The translations under genes were made by a program, and so were the position numbers. A DNA stretch of 64,000 bases from positions 2,046,001 to 2,110,000 of the forward strand of contig JAYWIR010000021.1 of assembly GCA_036172245.1 (NCBI GenBank). The letters run 5' to 3'. The DNA comes from Raillietiella orientalis (taxonomy: Eukaryota). Positions 3,300 to 40,689 of this stretch are shown piece after piece. Within the stretch, counting starts at the first letter, position 1. Each line of letters opens with the position of its first letter. A model generated the notes under the pieces. That model was not told the origin of the DNA and did not search any database. It was given only the letters and a program-made list of their open reading frames with translations.

Positions 3300-4660
3300 G
3301 ATGATGATACAATTTCATTACTTATGTGACTCACTTAAATTTCGATATTGTTTGCTTCCAGAGAACAAAGCGATGTATCTTTCCTCGATAGGAGCAGTCA
3401 GTTTCTTGCGATATATCGCACTTCAACTTCAGCGAATGCTTCAAGTTGTGTGGGCATCACTGAGCGAGAAGTGTTTCCCCCGGAGCAGGGTCAAGGGACA
3501 TTTTGGATTGTCAGTTCCTAAAGAAATTCCTGATGCGATGGCTTGCAATCCACGCGATGCATTCTCGCAGGTCCAAATTCTCTTCCCATTCTCGAAATAC
3601 AGAGCTGCATGCTGATGCGAAAGCAGCTGAGAACGCCACTTCCGTCCTATGGGCATTCCCATTGCATTAGTGGAGAGTAGCGGGAGAGGAACCATTTGAA
3701 GCCTTCTTCAGAAGGCACTTGATGCACGAAAAAGCGCGTGGGCAGGAAGAACTTCCCTCGCCAAAGCGCTGACCTTCCTCAGCGAGCACCTGAGCAGCAG
3801 CATCGCGGCGAAACGGGAAGTGAAGGCAACCATCTCCGGAAGAGAGAAAGGACTGGGAGAGTGGAAGACGGACCAGCTCACTGACGCTGCGACCCCGAAT
3901 ACACCACCCCATGGACTCTTGCGCTGGGGCGAGCTACTGGATGTTCCGTTGGAACACCTGAAGAGGCCCCCGATGCTCATGGACATCCGCACCCTCCCCT
4001 TGAAGTGGCAGGAGTCCGCGCTGCTGGTGCTGCACTGGGGTCTCCCATGCAACGCCCACCGTCATCACCGGACGCGGGGGGGGGGTACCCAGATGTGTCA
4101 GATGCGGGGAGAGTGAATCCCTCCCTCACTTGCCAGTGGAGTGTGTTGCCCTCCGGCCCCTCTGGGAACGCTTTGCCGCCACCCTGGGAACCCCCGGAGG
4201 CAACTCCAGGCACGCTTCGAAACCCCTCTTCGTTCGCGACGCCCTTCGGCCGGCGGTCCCCTGGCAGCCCTGTGCTGCCTAAGCGGGTCGTCGCTGCATG
4301 AAGCAAAGCAACAGGAGGACCCAGCGATAGGGATGCTATCCACTCGACCGTCCCATTCATCAGGATAGCGACGCGAGGACAGGACTATGCAGCAAGACCT
4401 TGCCGGCATCCTACAAGAGGATGAACAGGGCTGCCGCCAGCAGACAGTGATCCCTTCCCACACACCCCAAAGTGTGTTTATTTTTATTTTTTGTTTCTTT
4501 TGTTTGTCCCCTCCCCTCCGCTGCCGTGGTGGACCACGCCGGTCTGCGAACCGGTGGCCAGGCAGGTCTCCTTTAAATTGGGCATGGTTGGACCACTGGT
4601 CGAACCACAGTTCTCGTAACATGTTTATTTTTGAAATAAACGCCCCGGCTCACCCGGGTG
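3300..4660 (+). mobile_element. 5'-truncated Tx1/L1-like non-LTR retrotransposon (ORF2 C-terminus plus 3' UTR), copy A
   Basis: Frameshifted peptide KWQESALLVLHWGLPCNAHRHH followed by a Cx2C..H..C zinc-binding (zf-RVT-like) motif and LWERF, then a pyrimidine-rich UTR, AATAAA and a terminal hairpin. The 5' boundary is uncertain. Confidence 0.7.
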
Positions 4661-6965
4661 AAAATCAGAAGACATTTGAGATTCAGTAAGCAGCAGACTC
4701 ATTGTTTCTCGGCAGAACTTTTGCAACTGGTACTTATTTTTCTTTGCAACTTAGCATGAAGATTGCTTCCTGTAAGCGAATGTTGGTGCTTTGATCGTGA
4801 AAAGTCTTTCGGTCGTACCTATCTGATTCAGTATGCCAAACAGAGAGACAGAGAGAAAAAAAGAGAGAGTAATGAAAAAGATCTCTAATCCTAAGGTGTT
4901 GATTTCTGCCCCGACACAGGAATGATTTCACGTTTCGGATGTGTTCAAGAGCAAAGGACAAAAGGGGAACGAACTTGCGAATGTTTGTATACTCTTGCAT
5001 TTTGAAATGAAACAGAACACGAACATGGGAAAGCAACTTTCGGGCTCGAATCATGTAAATCGTAAGGAATGTGGTACCATGCAAGAAACATGAAACGCTG
5101 AGCACAGCCTGGTAAAAACTATTCCATCATTAGATGTTTACATCGATAGTAAGGATCCAATGGACACCTAGGGTCAGGAAAATTTTGAGAACAGGAACGA
5201 TTCGTGTCTGCTCTCAGCATATTGAAGTTATAAAAGTGCATAAATTCCTGTTCTTGTAAGCAATTTTCGTAAAGTGACTCACCATTTCTTGACTTTGTCT
5301 TTACCCTTTCCTCTTTGACAAAAAAGGTAAAATGTTAGTGTTTCTATTGCTCCGTCACATTAAATGTATTGCTCAATGTAGTTTTTTTTGTTTTCTTACC
5401 TTCAGCTCTCTTGAAGATCCAATTATGACACAAATATGAGTGCATCAAATACAATGAGCTAACGGGTGACGAAAGGCTTTTCTAACGCATATCCACAAGA
5501 AACCAGACTGAAACCCACCCAATACACAACGGTTAAAGTTAAGGACAAAAATGAAAGCACAAAACTCAAAGTACACGCACGTACAAGCGCTTGAAAATTT
5601 CGGGGATTGGCATTTGTTCAGGATTTTGAATCCCGAATTCCTTTCTGGCTCCTAAATTCCAAAGGAAATGAAATTGGGCATCGCAGTAACCGGAGCCTTC
5701 CAGCTTTCCGTTGAGAACGTTATAATTTGCACGAATTTTGCATTTCCAACGCACCAACGCATAATTCTACTTGGCAAATTCATTCTTGTCGTGGCAATTC
5801 TGACCGCGGGTTTCCTGCCGCGCGAACGCGCGATTGCTTTCGCAAACGCAAGCGGCGGCAACTTCGCCGCTCCCCAATCGGTGAAATTCAGAGGAATAAC
5901 TTCGAAAATGCGAGGATCTCCTTGGATTACGTCTTTGAGGATTGGAGGCGGCACGAAACGGTCTCAACATCTGTCGAGCCCGGCAGATGACGAGTGGAAA
6001 CGACCGCATCGCGTAGTTGCACGGAGGGAACTTTTTTCTTTTCATCGTTTCTTTACGGAGAATCAGGTTCTGCTCATCTATCTTTTCGTTGAAGCATTCC
6101 AAAGAAATGATCATTCGAATTCAATTCAGCAAGATGAAGCTCAACCGGAACTCTTTCAATTTACCTGAAGGCCGTGGAATCCTGTAGCGATAGATAATGT
6201 GGAACCCAAGATGGTGATAGAGAGTGCAAGGATAAAATATTCTTTGATTTTGGTGATGCTAAATTTTGGCAATAGTGAAAAGTAGCGAAATTAGCACGGA
6301 AGACGTTTTTTTTTTTTTTTTTAACCGTAAAAGCAAACGATGCTTTCATGTAGCTGAGATGTTTGATTTTGAAAGAAGAACGGTGATACTTCTATAGCAG
6401 ATAGTGTGGAGACAAGAAAGGTCAAGAAGGTCAGAGGTCAGAAAAGAGGATGGGATTAGAGGGAGGTCAAGAAAAGTTGAATGAAGGTCAAGAAAAGTTG
6501 AAAAGTTGATCTTTCCAGAGGAATGAATACAATTATCGAAGATGCAAATTGCATGGAGGATGTGCAGTTCCAAAATTTCAGGAACGTAATCATCTCTAAC
6601 TTCATAGTGAACGATTTCATCATTAATAAATTAGGAGGACATATGTGGATTAGCACGAATTGGTTTACGAGAATATTACTTAAAGGATTATTTCTCGTAG
6701 GGCAAATGTTAGCAGGGTGAGTAAGTTACGAAGAGGGTGAGAGACAAGGATTAAGGGCTCATGGGTGGAGATTAATGAACAGCGACAATTTAGATTAAAG
6801 CAAAATTTATTTATTTATATAAAGGGTGTAAGTTAATATTGTAAAGAGTTTGGGTTGATGAGTTAGTTAGGGTGAGTGGAAGGACAGAGATGGGATAAAT
6901 GTGGATTGTGAGGGTTGTTGATGGATAAGCTGAGTGTTGAGAATCGTTAAGGAATGCGCCTTTAA

Positions 6966-7489
6966 CCCTTTGGGTGTGATGTACGCATCTATGGGTTCGG
7001 CAAAAATTATCGGCGTGGGCTATGGACTCACGTATGTGTATGGCAAATGTTTTTACCTCATACTCGCGACAAAAGTTAACACGATCAATGTTTGGGATGG
7101 ACGCATACGCAAACATTCCTATGATCCTCTTGGCAACGACAGTAAACAAAATTCCATTTATATATCGGCTAACTATTGTCACCATAATATTATAGTTGAG
7201 CCGTATATAATTTATTATACCATACCCAAATGGATTATTGATTTTGTTGGAATTCTAGTTATAATTTTTAAATGTAGTATATGTATGGTAAAAATGAAAA
7301 TATTTTATTTAATATGGTGTAAATAAACAATTACAATAGTTACTTTGATCAGCACTTTATGTAGTCAGTTGGTACCTCTGATCGAGTGCGCGGTACGCGA
7401 AAGAGCATTCCGTCCACAGAGGTCGCCACTGCGACTCGCGTGTCGCCAACACGGAACGTTCCAATCTGATGAGCTCCGCACCCAAAGGG
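6966..7489. mobile_element. Non-autonomous piggyBac-type element (MITE), 524 bp
   Basis: TTAA(6962-6965)-CCCTTTGGGTG ... CACCCAAAGGG-TTAA(7490-7493): perfect 11-bp terminal inverted repeats starting CCC, a TTAA target duplication, and no transposase inside. Confidence 0.88.
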
Positions 7490-7631
7490 TTAATTGAATT
7501 CTGATTTACGAAATCGGTGTTTTGAATAAACTGTTGAGGCTAGGGTCAAGTTATGAAGGGAAAAGGATGAAAAGTAAGAAGTAAAGGAGTGATGAGATTC
7601 GTCTGAGAGGCAAAAGAGATGAGGTGATGGT

Positions 7632-8220
7632 TTGAGTTTCTATTTGCAATGCACCGCTTTCCTCAGCCGGTTCACTTACGAAAGGCTATCAGCAGCGGCG
7701 GAGGATGCCGCAGGGTGGGAGGTGGCTCCAACCAACAAAACTGCGCCTGGGTCCGATTCCAACCTGAGACCGGACCTGATGTTGCAGAAGGCGAATCGCA
7801 TACTCATCTTCGAAGTCCCCTGTCCCTTCGAAAACAAGGAAGAGGTGCTCAGAAAAAGAAAAGAAGTACCAGGAGATTCGCCTTGCTGTTCACGAGAAGA
7901 GGTCTTTCGATGCACTTGGATCGTGGGACCCTCGGGACGGTGGAGTCTTTCGTGAGTTGGGTATCCCGAAGCGGAACGCAGATAAGGAAGAGGCCTCCTG
8001 CATCCTGCACAGGAGGGACGTCTACTGGATGCACCGTCTAGGACATCCTGCAGATGGCGCCACGAATCTTCAACAGGAAGCAACAGCAGAAGAAGGATAG
8101 TCTCGCTTTTAACCCCCATGAAGATTGCCCATTCTCTTAGCCCAAGAGAAAAAGACACGGCAGATCCATCCAGTTTATTTATTTATTTTGTATATTTGTA
8201 ATGTACTTGTCGAAATAAAA
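7632..8220 (+). mobile_element. 3' fragment of RLE-type non-LTR retrotransposon (Utopia-like)
   Basis: NKTAPGSDSNLRPDLMLQKANRILIFEVPCPFEN...WIVGPSGRW is a degenerate PD-(D/E)xK restriction-like endonuclease of the NeSL/Utopia type. An AT-rich 3' UTR ending AATAAAA abuts U2 sequence. Confidence 0.82.
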
Positions 8221-8376
8221 TCCGTTCTTATCATCTTGACATCTGGCACGCCACTCATCTGGTGGCGAGTACATAAAACTACTTTTTGGAAGTGTACTTG
8301 GGGATGCTTGGAGCTGGCTCCTCTCTTGTCGCTGGTCGACCCGGTAATGCAGTACCTCCGGGATCGCCCGCTCCCC
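8221..8376 (+). pseudogene. U2: U2 snRNA pseudogene, 3' portion (from nt ~39)
   Basis: TCCGTTCTTATCATCTTGACATCTGGCACG aligns to U2 TCTGTTCTTATCAGTTTAATATCTGATACG (23/30 by eye). It continues with stem IIb CGCCAC/GTGGCG, a degenerate Sm site ACTTTTTGG, stem III tip GGAGCTGGCTCC and stem-loop IV TCGACCCGGTAATGCAGTACCTCCGGGA. The 5' 38 nt are absent and stem IIa is disrupted. Confidence 0.9.
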
Positions 8377-9149
8377 TTTACAAGCCACTCCCACCATACC
8401 TCTTGTATTCAAACTGTAATGTACACCACATCGTACTTGGAATTCAAAGTTGAAGCCATCCATTTGTGGATGCCGAGTCCGCATCATAGAGGACTCAGCG
8501 ATCGGGATGCACCTCCGAGACCTTGAGAAAGCGGACCTTGGAGATGTTCCTGTTGCATGCCAGAATTCGGTGCCGCCCCCTTCCTTAGGTAGCGTGCTCC
8601 CGATTCGTACCCGACGAGACAAGCCTTGCCTCCAGGGAGAACGTCCCGGATTCGCGATTCCCGGCTAGCAAAAAAGAATGGAGACCGGCACTACAAGACT
8701 CTGGGGTCTGCCCCCCCCCCTCCCGAGGGAGCATGCTGAAGAGGCCACTCTTGAGCTCCCCCTCACCTCCAAGCCCTCTGTCAAGAAAGACTCTTCTTCT
8801 CTAGGGAGAGCGTCCAGGGAGGTTCCCGGAGTATCCCATTACTCCATCTGACGACGTGTCGCGCTGCAGCTGAGGATGCCTGGGACAGAAGGCAGCTCCT
8901 GAAAACCGCAGACCTACCGACGAAGCAAGAGAGCGGGTGGGGTGGAGGGATCAAAGCCGAGATGAGATCCCATGGAGACGAAGCCGAGATCGTCCAGCAG
9001 AAGGAAACGAGGGTGGATGCTTTGGCAGGGGCATCAGAGGCGCGGAAGAGCGTGGCATGGGGGCTGCCGAGAAACGCATTCTGGTTGCCGGGAGAGGAAG
9101 AAAAGCGCGTCGAACCGCGTGTTGCCATGGAAGGAAAGGTTCCTCTCCT

Positions 9150-11736: not shown

Positions 11737-12503
11737 ACCCGGGTGCGCCGGGGCGTTTATTTCAAAAATAAACATGTTACGAGAACTGTGGTTCGACCAG
11801 TGGTCCAACCATGCCCAATTTAAAGGAGACCTGCCTGGCCACCGGTTCGCAGACCGGCGTGGTCCACCACGGCAGCGGAGGGGAGGGGACAAACAAAAGA
11901 AACAAAAAATAAAAATAAACACACTTTGGGGTGTGTGGGAAGGGATCACTGTCTGCTGGCGGCAGCCCTGTTCATCCTCTTGTAGGATGCCGGCAAGGTC
12001 TTGCTGCATAGTCCTGTCCTCGCGTCGCTATCCTGATGAATGGGACGGTCGAGTGGATAGCATCCCTATCGCTGGGTCCTCCTGTTGCTTTGCTTCATGC
12101 AGCGACGACCCGCTTAGGCAGCACAGGGCTGCCAGGGGACCGCCGGCCGAAGGGCGTCGCGAACGAAGAGGGGTTTCGAAGCGTGCCTGGAGTTGCCTCC
12201 GGGGGTTCCCAGGGTGGCGGCAAAGCGTTCCCAGAGGGGCCGGAGGGCAACACACTCCACTGGCAAGTGAGGGAGGGATTCACTCTCCCCGCATCTGACA
12301 CAGTTTGGGTAACCCCTTCCCCGCGTCCGGTGATGACGGTGGGCGTTGCATGGGAGACCCCAGTGCAGCACCAGCAGCGCGGACTCCTGCCACTTCAAGG
12401 GGAGGGTGCGGATGTCCATGAGCATCGGGGGCCTCTTCAGGTGTTCCAACGGAACATCCAGTAGCTCTCCCCAGCGCAAGAGTCCATGGGGTGGTGTATT
12501 CGG
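11737..12503 (-). mobile_element. Tx1/L1-like 3' fragment, copy B (near-identical inverted copy of 3895-4659)
   Basis: The reverse complement matches 3895-4659 apart from a few differences. It retains an in-frame YPNCVRCGESESLPHLPVEC zinc motif. Confidence 0.85.
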
Positions 12504-39169: not shown

Positions 39170-39800
39170 GCTTCTTGCTTCTGAGGTTGCAGTGCAACTT
39201 CCGCATCATCAAGAAGCCGTCTCTAGCATGTGTTTTTGATATCCCTAGTGTATCTGATGCACGGAGGCTACCCATAAGGTGCTCGACTTCCTCCCAGTGC
39301 CTCCTAGGGATACCCAACCCGCGCAGCACGGCATCGCTTACAGGATCCCAGGTTACTAGTGGTCCAATGGCGCATGTCTAGCACTGCATTTCATCCGTCG
39401 ATAACTGAGAGACAACATCCTGGTACTTCGACACCTTCTTGTTTCTGGCGATGCTGGAAGCCAGTCCGCCCATCCTCGAAAGGGCAGCACCCATCCGGCA
39501 CCGTGATCCAGTTGCCCTTCTGCGGCACCACCAGATCAGGCTGCAGATTGGAATCCATGCCGGGAACCTTCTGGCTGTTCACAACTCCAGCACCTTATGG
39601 GTAGCACAACTCCCATTTCTCCACATCCCATCACAAGCAGCTGTCCTGATCCTTTGTGGGATAGCCTTCGCGCCTTGCTGCGTGGAGACGGGAGTGCATC
39701 ACGCAGTGATCTGCAATATGAGGCAATGCCTCGCCCCGAAGTCCACACCGTCCACATGAGCGATCTGCTTCCCTCCTCCTTGCGGCACCTCTAATCTTGA
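39170..39800 (-). mobile_element. Second RLE-type (NeSL/Utopia-like) endonuclease remnant
   Basis: NSQKVPGMDSNLQPDLVV...DGCCPFEDG followed by GPLVTWDPVSDAVLRGLGIPRR; homologous to the 7632-8040 peptide. Confidence 0.75.
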
Positions 39801-40689
39801 GAAGATTAAGTCTCGCCGCGTGGGCAAACCGGGAACAGGAGAACCTCAGGAAGTCGCCGCTTGTGGGGAAGAAACTGGAGGAGGGATGAGGGTCTTTCCC
39901 TTGTTCACGACGTTTCCTAGCAACGGATTGTCGCGCGTGTGTTGACCTAATCGTCGAGACACACTTCTCCCTATCACAAAGATCGAATACCAGATCCCTT
40001 ATCCATATTCGTGGCTGTCCATCAGAAAATTCCCAGGAAGCTGCTGCTCTCAGGGAGGGTGCAGCAGAAGCGTGCAGCAGCTGGTCAGAAGGATGCGTCG
40101 AAGAACCTGAAAACCGATACGGAAGAGTTTTTTTTCTTCTCCTTTTTCCACGGGAGGACCTCATCTCGTGTATGCGATGAATCTCTGAAACAAACAAGTC
40201 CTTCAATCACCCCCGGAAGCTCCTTCCACGACAGTGGGCATTCGAGAAGTCAAAAGCATTTTCAGGCATGGGCGCCTTCGACATGAGCAGAGGCTGAGCA
40301 AAGGGCTCCGCACGTCACGGTGGCGTCGATGACTCCCCCCCCCCCCTGCCTTCACACTCAACGACACGCGCATGGCATAAGCGGAGAACTTCGATCACTG
40401 ACACGGGTGCAGCATCCGAGAAAGTCACTCTCTCTCAACCCGGGTGATTCTTGGTCCAGATGAGGAAATTCCCCCACAGTTCTCAAGCTACAACTTCAAG
40501 AAGCCGATAATTCATCCAGGATTTCGTTTTACCGATTCGTGTGATGTGAAACGCCTCACAACATTGAGGTTCTGAGTGTGCACCGAATACCTGACTAGGG
40601 CGTGTACAACGTACACATTCAATGTCGCTAATCTCTCGAGTTTTCTGTGATCCTGTCGTCCCAGATCACGTACAGATTCTGCTCGAATC

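What the first reader, a model, noticed from the sequence alone, without database searches (positions are those of the whole stretch)
7632..8376. RLE retrotransposon fused precisely to U2 snRNA at the Utopia target site
Seen: a PD-(D/E)xK endonuclease C-terminus and 3' UTR end at AATAAAA(8220). The next base begins a U2 snRNA copy at the position right after the branch-point recognition sequence GTGTAGTA (nt 39 in human numbering). U2 stems IIb, III and IV and the Sm site are recognisable. Established: Utopia elements (NeSL-related RLE clade) insert sequence-specifically at this U2 position, and Tx1-clade Keno uses nearly the same site. Inference: this is a fossil Utopia insertion, possibly a new lineage or host record. 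The U2 5' end and most of the element were lost or displaced by later insertions.
Basis: partly seen in the sequence, partly recalled or inferred. Interest (0 to 1): 0.72.

Follow-up and report, generated by a model that had tools for sequence, protein, structure and literature searches.

The report
Utopia retrotransposon remnant with U2 tail
This is the dead tail end of a known jumping gene (Utopia) that targets one spot in the U2 splicing-RNA gene; it is still joined to the back half of U2, but it probably carried that piece along on its RNA to an unrelated place rather than marking a broken U2 gene.

Summary
A frameshifted restriction-like-endonuclease C-terminus and 3' UTR (7679-8220; the element starts at 7679, not 7632) join U2 snRNA at human nt 39 (8221; Rfam 61.6 bits), the published Utopia junction. 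It is a decayed, 5'-truncated Utopia copy, not Keno. COX1 places the host with or near pentastomids, absent from the published host list. The reading 'a U2 gene hit in place' is probably wrong. The genome holds at least 92 such junctions. None of 42 dispersed copies examined has a U2 promoter or clear U2 5' end within about 7 kb, their U2 tails stop 111-509 nt past the junction (shorter stubs also occur), and 11 truncated copies are capped by the U2 5' end without promoter. Promoter-bearing U2 5' ends were found at four places only, all interrupted; no intact U2 gene was found. Best reading (0.58): off-target insertion from a U2-Utopia-U2 read-through transcript, as known for R1 with 28S flanks. 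No target-site duplication or RNA proves this here. The scan noted U2-capped Utopia copies elsewhere in this genome. New member of a known kind; modest interest.

The parts
7679..8220 (+). 5'-truncated, decayed Utopia-type non-LTR retrotransposon (542 nt)
   Evidence: 66-73% DNA identity to the best other copies, 44 matches in the genome; 5' limit from copies that continue upstream
7683..8100 (+). Broken C-terminal coding remnant: restriction-like endonuclease, frame break near 7850, small deletions, stop at 8098-8100
   Evidence: tblastn to family member E 1.6e-25; family member matches R2 RLE region; ORF list
8101..8220 (+). 3' UTR ending in AATAAAA
   Evidence: sequence; aligns to 3' UTRs of other copies
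8221..8377 (+). U2 snRNA 3' part from human nt 39, pseudogene (Sm-site region 8281-8289)
   Evidence: Rfam 61.6 bits; 84% to promoter-bearing U2
8378..8394 (+). Few bases of U2 3' flank of an older type; shared sequence ends between 8381 and 8394
   Evidence: alignments to L124 and L137; shared length 164 nt
7653..7678 (+). Possible decayed U2 5' cap (uncertain)
   Evidence: alignment score reached by 2% of 1278 background windows; part of the score comes from Utopia bases

Best explanation
A dead Utopia copy inserted outside any U2 gene. Source elements sit in real U2 genes (shown for C389: promoter, U2 5' 37 nt, truncated Utopia, rest of U2, 3' flank). Inferred: RNA polymerase II from the U2 promoter reads through, giving one RNA: U2 5' end, Utopia, U2 3' part, some 3' flank. 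Inferred: target-primed reverse transcription at an off-target site started inside the U2 tail (here at or just past the mature 3' end), copied the tail and 542 nt of Utopia, and stopped or jumped to the U2 5' end. The precise nt-39 junction is then inherited from the source gene, not made at this locus. Whether the enzyme was Utopia's own or an L1/Tx1-type LINE's is not resolved. The piece has no function now.
For: At least 92 A-rich-end/U2 junctions genome-wide, control 0. 30 of 30 fetched Rfam U2 hits start at nt 39. Promoter sequence found only on C389, C482 and twice on C30 (40 of 254 candidates scored), and 4 of 4 of these keep promoter plus U2 5' end. 0 of 42 dispersed long-tail copies have promoter or clear 5' end within about 7 kb, and their upstream DNA shares no common older promoter. 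Tails end 111-509 nt past the junction, 29 of 42 beyond 175 nt, inside genomic 3' flank; near-perfect tails of 20, 24 and 43 nt also occur. 11 truncated copies carry a U2 cap that starts at or near +1 with no promoter; 4 of 11 have a 6-11 bp flanking repeat overlapping the tail end, against 1.8% in mismatched pairs. Transcribed parts are dispersed, the untranscribed promoter is not. Precedent: off-target R1 copies carry 28S flanks at both ends (PMC2718515 section 14); R2 RNAs keep up to 36 nt of upstream 28S (PMC3774820 abstract).
Against: No convincing target-site duplication at this locus (score 5, reached by 11% of controls) or around the other long-tail copies. 7 of 11 capped units have no duplication, and the 4-of-11 count used search windows tightened after seeing the data (1 of 11 at score 7 or more). 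No overall link between 3' UTR family and flank variant (Mantel r -0.02, p 0.56, n 30). No empty site found. Long-tail copies were picked by Rfam score, which favours long tails. Kojima and Jurka report loss of the U2 5' part at in-place insertions in Phytophthora. No RNA data.
Confidence: 0.58

Rival explanations
1. In-place insertion into a once functional, dispersed U2 gene; promoter and U2 5' end were deleted at integration or lost later.
For: The tail here is the whole U2 3' part plus a few flank bases. Deletion of the U2 5' part on insertion is proposed for Phytophthora (PMC4640811); upstream deletions occur at R2 5' junctions (PMC2718515 passages). The surroundings are repeat-rich and rearranged.
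Against: All 4 promoter-bearing U2 5' ends found keep promoter and head, while 0 of 42 dispersed copies do; no shared older promoter; no intact dispersed U2 gene found; tail ends are scattered.
Confidence: 0.2
2. Utopia inserted at its normal site into a pre-existing promoterless U2 retropseudogene at this locus.
For: The tail ends near the mature U2 end; a decayed U2 5' end may precede the element; the genome makes U2 retrocopies in large numbers (332 matches, control 0).
Against: Such targets are rare: 0 of 30 sampled U2 5' copies reach the site; only 2 of 6 junction-pattern matches span it cleanly and both are internal fragments. 29 of 42 tails run into genomic flank that mature U2 RNA lacks.
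Confidence: 0.15
3. DNA-level scattering of pieces of an old U2/Utopia array (duplication or capture by DNA transposons).
For: Several copies share up to about 500 nt of flank including an inverted older Utopia-U2 piece; no duplication seen at their ends.
Against: Promoter DNA is not scattered; left ends fall inside Utopia or at U2 +1, the polarity expected of RNA templates.
Confidence: 0.07

Closest known systems
Utopia, U2-targeting RLE non-LTR retrotransposons of the NeSL clade (Kojima and Jurka 2015, PMC4640811)
   Same: C-terminal RLE, 3' junction at U2 nt 39 after an A-rich end, several families in one host, weak specificity as in ants and reptiles; short U2 stubs followed by unrelated DNA are visible in their S1 Fig for aphid and pine beetle.
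   Different: Host group not listed there; tails of up to about 500 nt including U2 3' flank, and promoterless U2 caps on truncated copies, are not described in the parts read; the paper reads U2-like bases at off-target sites as degenerate targets.
Off-target R1 insertions of Drosophila (Stage and Eickbush 2009, PMC2718515)
   Same: Target-gene sequence carried at the 5' end (7-28 bp) and 3' end (up to 14 nt) of copies outside the target gene, read as co-transcript.
   Different: APE-type element, 28S rRNA target, much shorter 3' carry-over.
Keno (Tx1 clade, U2-specific)
   Same: Same U2 3' junction.
   Different: Keno has an apurinic-type endonuclease; this element ends in a restriction-like endonuclease.
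Tailless U2 retropseudogenes (Noll et al. 2015, PMC5322556) and SINEU (Kojima 2015, PMC4494074)
   Same: 3'-truncated U2 5' copies with target-site duplications and priming-site complementarity match the stand-alone U2 heads in this genome; SINEU shows U2 heads added to retroelements.
   Different: Reported from therian mammals, anole and a few in maize, not arthropods; they do not explain the U2 3' tail.

Membership tests
Utopia | 3' end joined to U2 snRNA at nt 39 | tested here: met
   8220/8221; same junction as published S1 Fig; at least 92 in the genome
Utopia | C-terminal CCHC zinc finger plus PD-(D/E)xK restriction-like endonuclease | tested here: met
   Remnant matches family member, which matches the R2 CCHC+RLE region; the remnant itself starts after the CCHC finger
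Utopia | Reverse transcriptase upstream of the RLE in the same element | tested here: met
   Not in the window copy; sister copies carry RT then RLE in order, Pfam RVT_1 E 1e-32 to 1e-33 in 2 of 2 RT-bearing frames scanned
Utopia | One protein with one to three N-terminal zinc fingers | tested here: inconclusive
   C2H2-like motifs seen by eye in frames of family B; no unbroken full-length frame of the window's family was fetched
Utopia | RT phylogeny inside the NeSL clade | not testable with these tools
   No Repbase Utopia, NeSL, R4, HERO or CRE references. Nearest proteins are arthropod RLE elements at E 1e-95 to 1e-29, some from known Utopia hosts; R2 is far weaker; tree without outgroup
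Utopia | At least one copy inside a genuine U2 gene with both flanks | tested here: met
   C389 locus: promoter, U2 1-37, truncated element (sister family), U2 39-end, flank
Keno (Tx1 clade) | N-terminal apurinic-type endonuclease, no C-terminal RLE | tested here: not met
   C-terminal RLE present
Functional U2 snRNA gene | Promoter, nt 1-38 with branch-point sequence, intact stem IIa | tested here: not met
   No promoter or clear 5' end in the window; stem IIa mismatched
Tailless retropseudogene (for the whole unit) | Flanking target-site duplication overlapping the 3' end | tested here: inconclusive
   Score 5 here, 11% of controls; 4 of 11 capped units elsewhere score 6 or more

The most novel reading that the evidence does not exclude
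Utopia is a promoterless parasite whose mRNA is a capped U2 snRNA chimera made by the U2 promoter, and its own reverse transcriptase uses U2 sequence on RNA to prime off-target: it spreads U2-tailed and U2-capped copies, and also copies U2 snRNA itself, producing the more than 300 stand-alone U2 5' fragments that all stop just short of its cut site. This would give an RLE-driven source of tailless retrocopies in an arthropod.
Probability: 0.2. Interest if true: 0.65.

Novelty: new member of a known kind. Interest (0 to 1): 0.38.

Why it matters
The locus itself is a fossil. Its value is as one of many copies that record the ends of Utopia's RNA. How Utopia is transcribed is not addressed in the parts of the defining paper that I read; U2 caps starting at +1 and read-through tails point to the U2 promoter and make this testable by long-read RNA. 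It also warns that 'disrupted U2 genes' counted from Utopia 3' junctions can overstate the number of genes hit, and that Rfam U2 hits in this assembly are pseudogenes (30 of 30 fetched). It extends Utopia to a probable pentastomid host.

Tried and rejected
Keno/Tx1 identity: rejected, RLE present. Intact U2 gene in the assembly: not found by four patterns and a promoter query; one search used the vertebrate-type spacing and could not match this host's extra A; 47 of 5640 Rfam candidates were scored, so absence from the assembly is likely, not proven, and says nothing about the animal. Pfam on the remnant: no match. Pfam on 8 flanking frames: 1 weak match below cut-off; the flanks remain unidentified. 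Empty site for the right flank: only the window itself. Duplication search around long-tail copies: nothing distinguishable from chance, no formal control run. Family-to-flank linkage: Mantel null; 6 of the 7 most similar UTR pairs had high flank similarity, equally explained by age. 18 further RLE copies: 1 clear U2 cap, 0 clear tails, so most copies of the more distant families lack U2 altogether. Of 29 loci most like the window copy, 7 had a tail scoring 9 or more. Sequencing runs: one DNA holder, no RNA holder listed; no reads were laid, so intact U2 genes and transcripts were not examined. Literature searches that found no description of U2 tail carry-over or U2 caps for Utopia, or of Utopia in pentastomids: (open-licence library only; Repbase Reports not searchable).

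Full report
1. Observation. The window holds one Rfam match at the curated cut-off: U2, 8192-8377 +, 61.6 bits, E 9.8e-10. True similarity starts at 8221, directly after AATAAAA at 8214-8220. This is human nt 39; the host U2 has an extra A upstream, seen in the promoter-bearing gene. Upstream lies a broken coding remnant in two frames that matches a better-preserved relative from the same genome (50% and 44%, E 1.6e-25). That relative matches the CCHC finger and restriction-like endonuclease of a solved R2 protein (E 2.3e-10). The remnant alone has no Pfam match. Homology to other copies starts at 7679, where 10 of 29 other loci continue in element sequence that the window lacks.

2. Identity. 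Kojima and Jurka (PMC4640811; I read main-text parts 1-3 of 5, S1 Fig parts 1, 4 and 5 of 8, and S1 Table) define Utopia by an RLE, a 3' junction at U2 nt 39 and a place in the NeSL clade; Keno shares the junction but has an apurinic-type endonuclease. The junction and the RLE are met. Sister copies carry RT before the RLE. The 74 database relatives are mostly arthropod RLE proteins, including ones from Camponotus, Dendroctonus and Ladona, which the paper lists as hosts; I could not verify that those proteins are the Repbase elements. A tree of the C-terminal region (19 of the 74 relatives, chosen by having a name and enough length, plus 9 rows from this genome) puts the window remnant in a 99-support group of this genome's families, with a second group beside it at weak support. 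It has no R2, R4, HERO or NeSL rows, so clade membership is untested.

3. Host. The genome's COX1 has Armillifer (77%, 76%) and Linguatula (75%) among its four best hits and groups with them at 100/100 on a long branch (14 of 120 listed hits used, no other crustaceans). Related copies lie on large contigs (94% and 84%), so it is probably the host's own. The host is a pentastomid or near relative. The published list has no such host; Daphnia is its only crustacean. One search for Pentastomida with transposable elements listed two unrelated papers.

4. The genome-wide picture. The remnant has 44 DNA matches and the relative's C-terminus at least 150 protein matches. Rfam finds 46 U2 matches (47 of 5640 candidates scored); 30 of 30 fetched begin at nt 39 behind an A-rich, non-U2 end. 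A junction pattern has 92 matches, control 0, only 2 of them with the U2 bases before the site. No intact U2 gene was found. U2 is essential, so intact genes are presumably unassembled (inference). A promoter query hits C389, C482 and two places near the end of C30. All four keep the U2 5' end and break at nt 33-37; only C389 is shown to be a full promoter-head-Utopia-tail-flank unit.

5. Dispersed copies do not look like hit genes. Of 42 dispersed long-tail copies (38 fetched with about 7 kb upstream, three with 10 kb stretches, and the window), none has promoter or clear U2 5' end, and their upstream DNA shares only scattered repeats. Sequence shared with other copies ends 111-509 nt after the junction, beyond 175 nt in 29 of 42, that is inside genomic flank. 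These were chosen by Rfam score or by a long-tail query, which favours long tails; near-perfect tails of 20, 24 and 43 nt exist too, and most copies of more distant families have none (0 of 18). Eleven 5'-truncated copies, with about 0.1-4.7 kb between cap and tail junction, carry a U2 cap that starts at or near +1 without promoter. Four of 11 have a 6-11 bp flanking repeat that overlaps the tail end, against 1.8% of mismatched pairs; the windows were tightened after seeing the data, and only 1 of 11 scores 7 or more (one row was mis-anchored and redone in 85).

6. Stand-alone U2 5' fragments. Two patterns give 335 and 332 matches (controls 8 and 0). In 30 exact copies the match ends at host nt 27-37, at 33-37 in 24, and none reaches the Utopia site. 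Flanking duplications scoring 8 or more occur in 12 of 29 (one duplicate locus dropped) and 10 of 30 (one locus is in both sets), against 1% or less in controls. These fit tailless retropseudogenes, reported from therians, anole and a few in maize (PMC5322556; passages and parts 3-4 of 5; its supplements, which hold the U2 breakpoints, were not seen). From recall, human U2 pseudogenes also end near this region, so the endpoint does not by itself implicate Utopia.

7. Mechanism. Shown: a source-type insertion in a real U2 gene; dispersal of transcribed parts but not of the promoter; variable 3' ends; caps at +1. Inferred: a U2-promoter read-through RNA, internal priming in its U2 tail at off-target sites, 5' truncation with or without a jump to the U2 5' end. 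Precedent: off-target R1 copies carry 7-28 bp of upstream and up to 14 nt of downstream 28S (PMC2718515; passages and section 14); R2 RNAs can keep up to 36 nt of upstream 28S (PMC3774820, abstract); template switching to snRNAs is discussed for SINEU (PMC4494074, passages). For this locus the evidence is indirect: a possible decayed cap at 7653-7678 (2% of background windows), a weak flanking repeat (11% of controls), a tail ending at 8381-8394, and no empty site. I give 0.58 to carry-over on RNA, 0.20 to a hit gene with 5' loss, 0.15 to insertion into a U2 retropseudogene, 0.07 to DNA-level scattering. A test for linkage of element family and flank variant was null. No reads were examined.

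8. Novelty. The element is a new member of Utopia in a probably new host group. Short U2 stubs at off-target sites are already visible in the published S1 Fig (aphid, pine beetle), and a 2026 review repeats that some Utopias are less specific (PMC13580325, passages). Long tails with flank and promoterless caps were not found described in searches, which cover open-licence papers only. Earlier notes of this scan report U2-capped Utopia pieces and tailless U2 copies elsewhere in this genome; I had reached this reading before consulting them and do not count them as support. Interest 0.38.

Noticed in passing
window 39273-40113, - strand: A second, more decayed RLE (Utopia-related) C-terminal remnant with no U2 tail.
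   Followed up: partly
window about 6961-7492: Element with terminal inverted repeats flanked by TTAA on both sides, piggyBac-like non-autonomous transposon by recall of that family's target; related pieces in L019 and L148.
   Followed up: partly
window 3895-4659 and 11737-12503: 99%-identical copies in inverted orientation, a recent repeat.
   Followed up: no
G000, genome-wide: More than 300 promoterless U2 5' fragments ending at nt 27-37, many with target-site duplications: tailless U2 retrocopies in an arthropod.
   Followed up: yes
G000, genome-wide: No intact U2 gene found; all four promoter-bearing 5' ends are interrupted.
   Followed up: partly
L118, L120, L124, L125, L128, L132, L135 (about 7050-7210): The U2 3' flank is followed by an inverted, older Utopia-U2 piece, shared between several loci, so it was probably part of an old U2 cluster.
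   Followed up: partly
L113 and other U2 tails: The host U2 Sm-site region reads AC followed by five T and G, a variant of the Rfam consensus.
   Followed up: no
L097, L098, L099, L110: A second Utopia-related family with frames of 800-1200 aa, tandem copies and no U2 detected in the stretches fetched.
   Followed up: partly
G000, 54 places: Many COX1 fragments on nuclear contigs.
   Followed up: no
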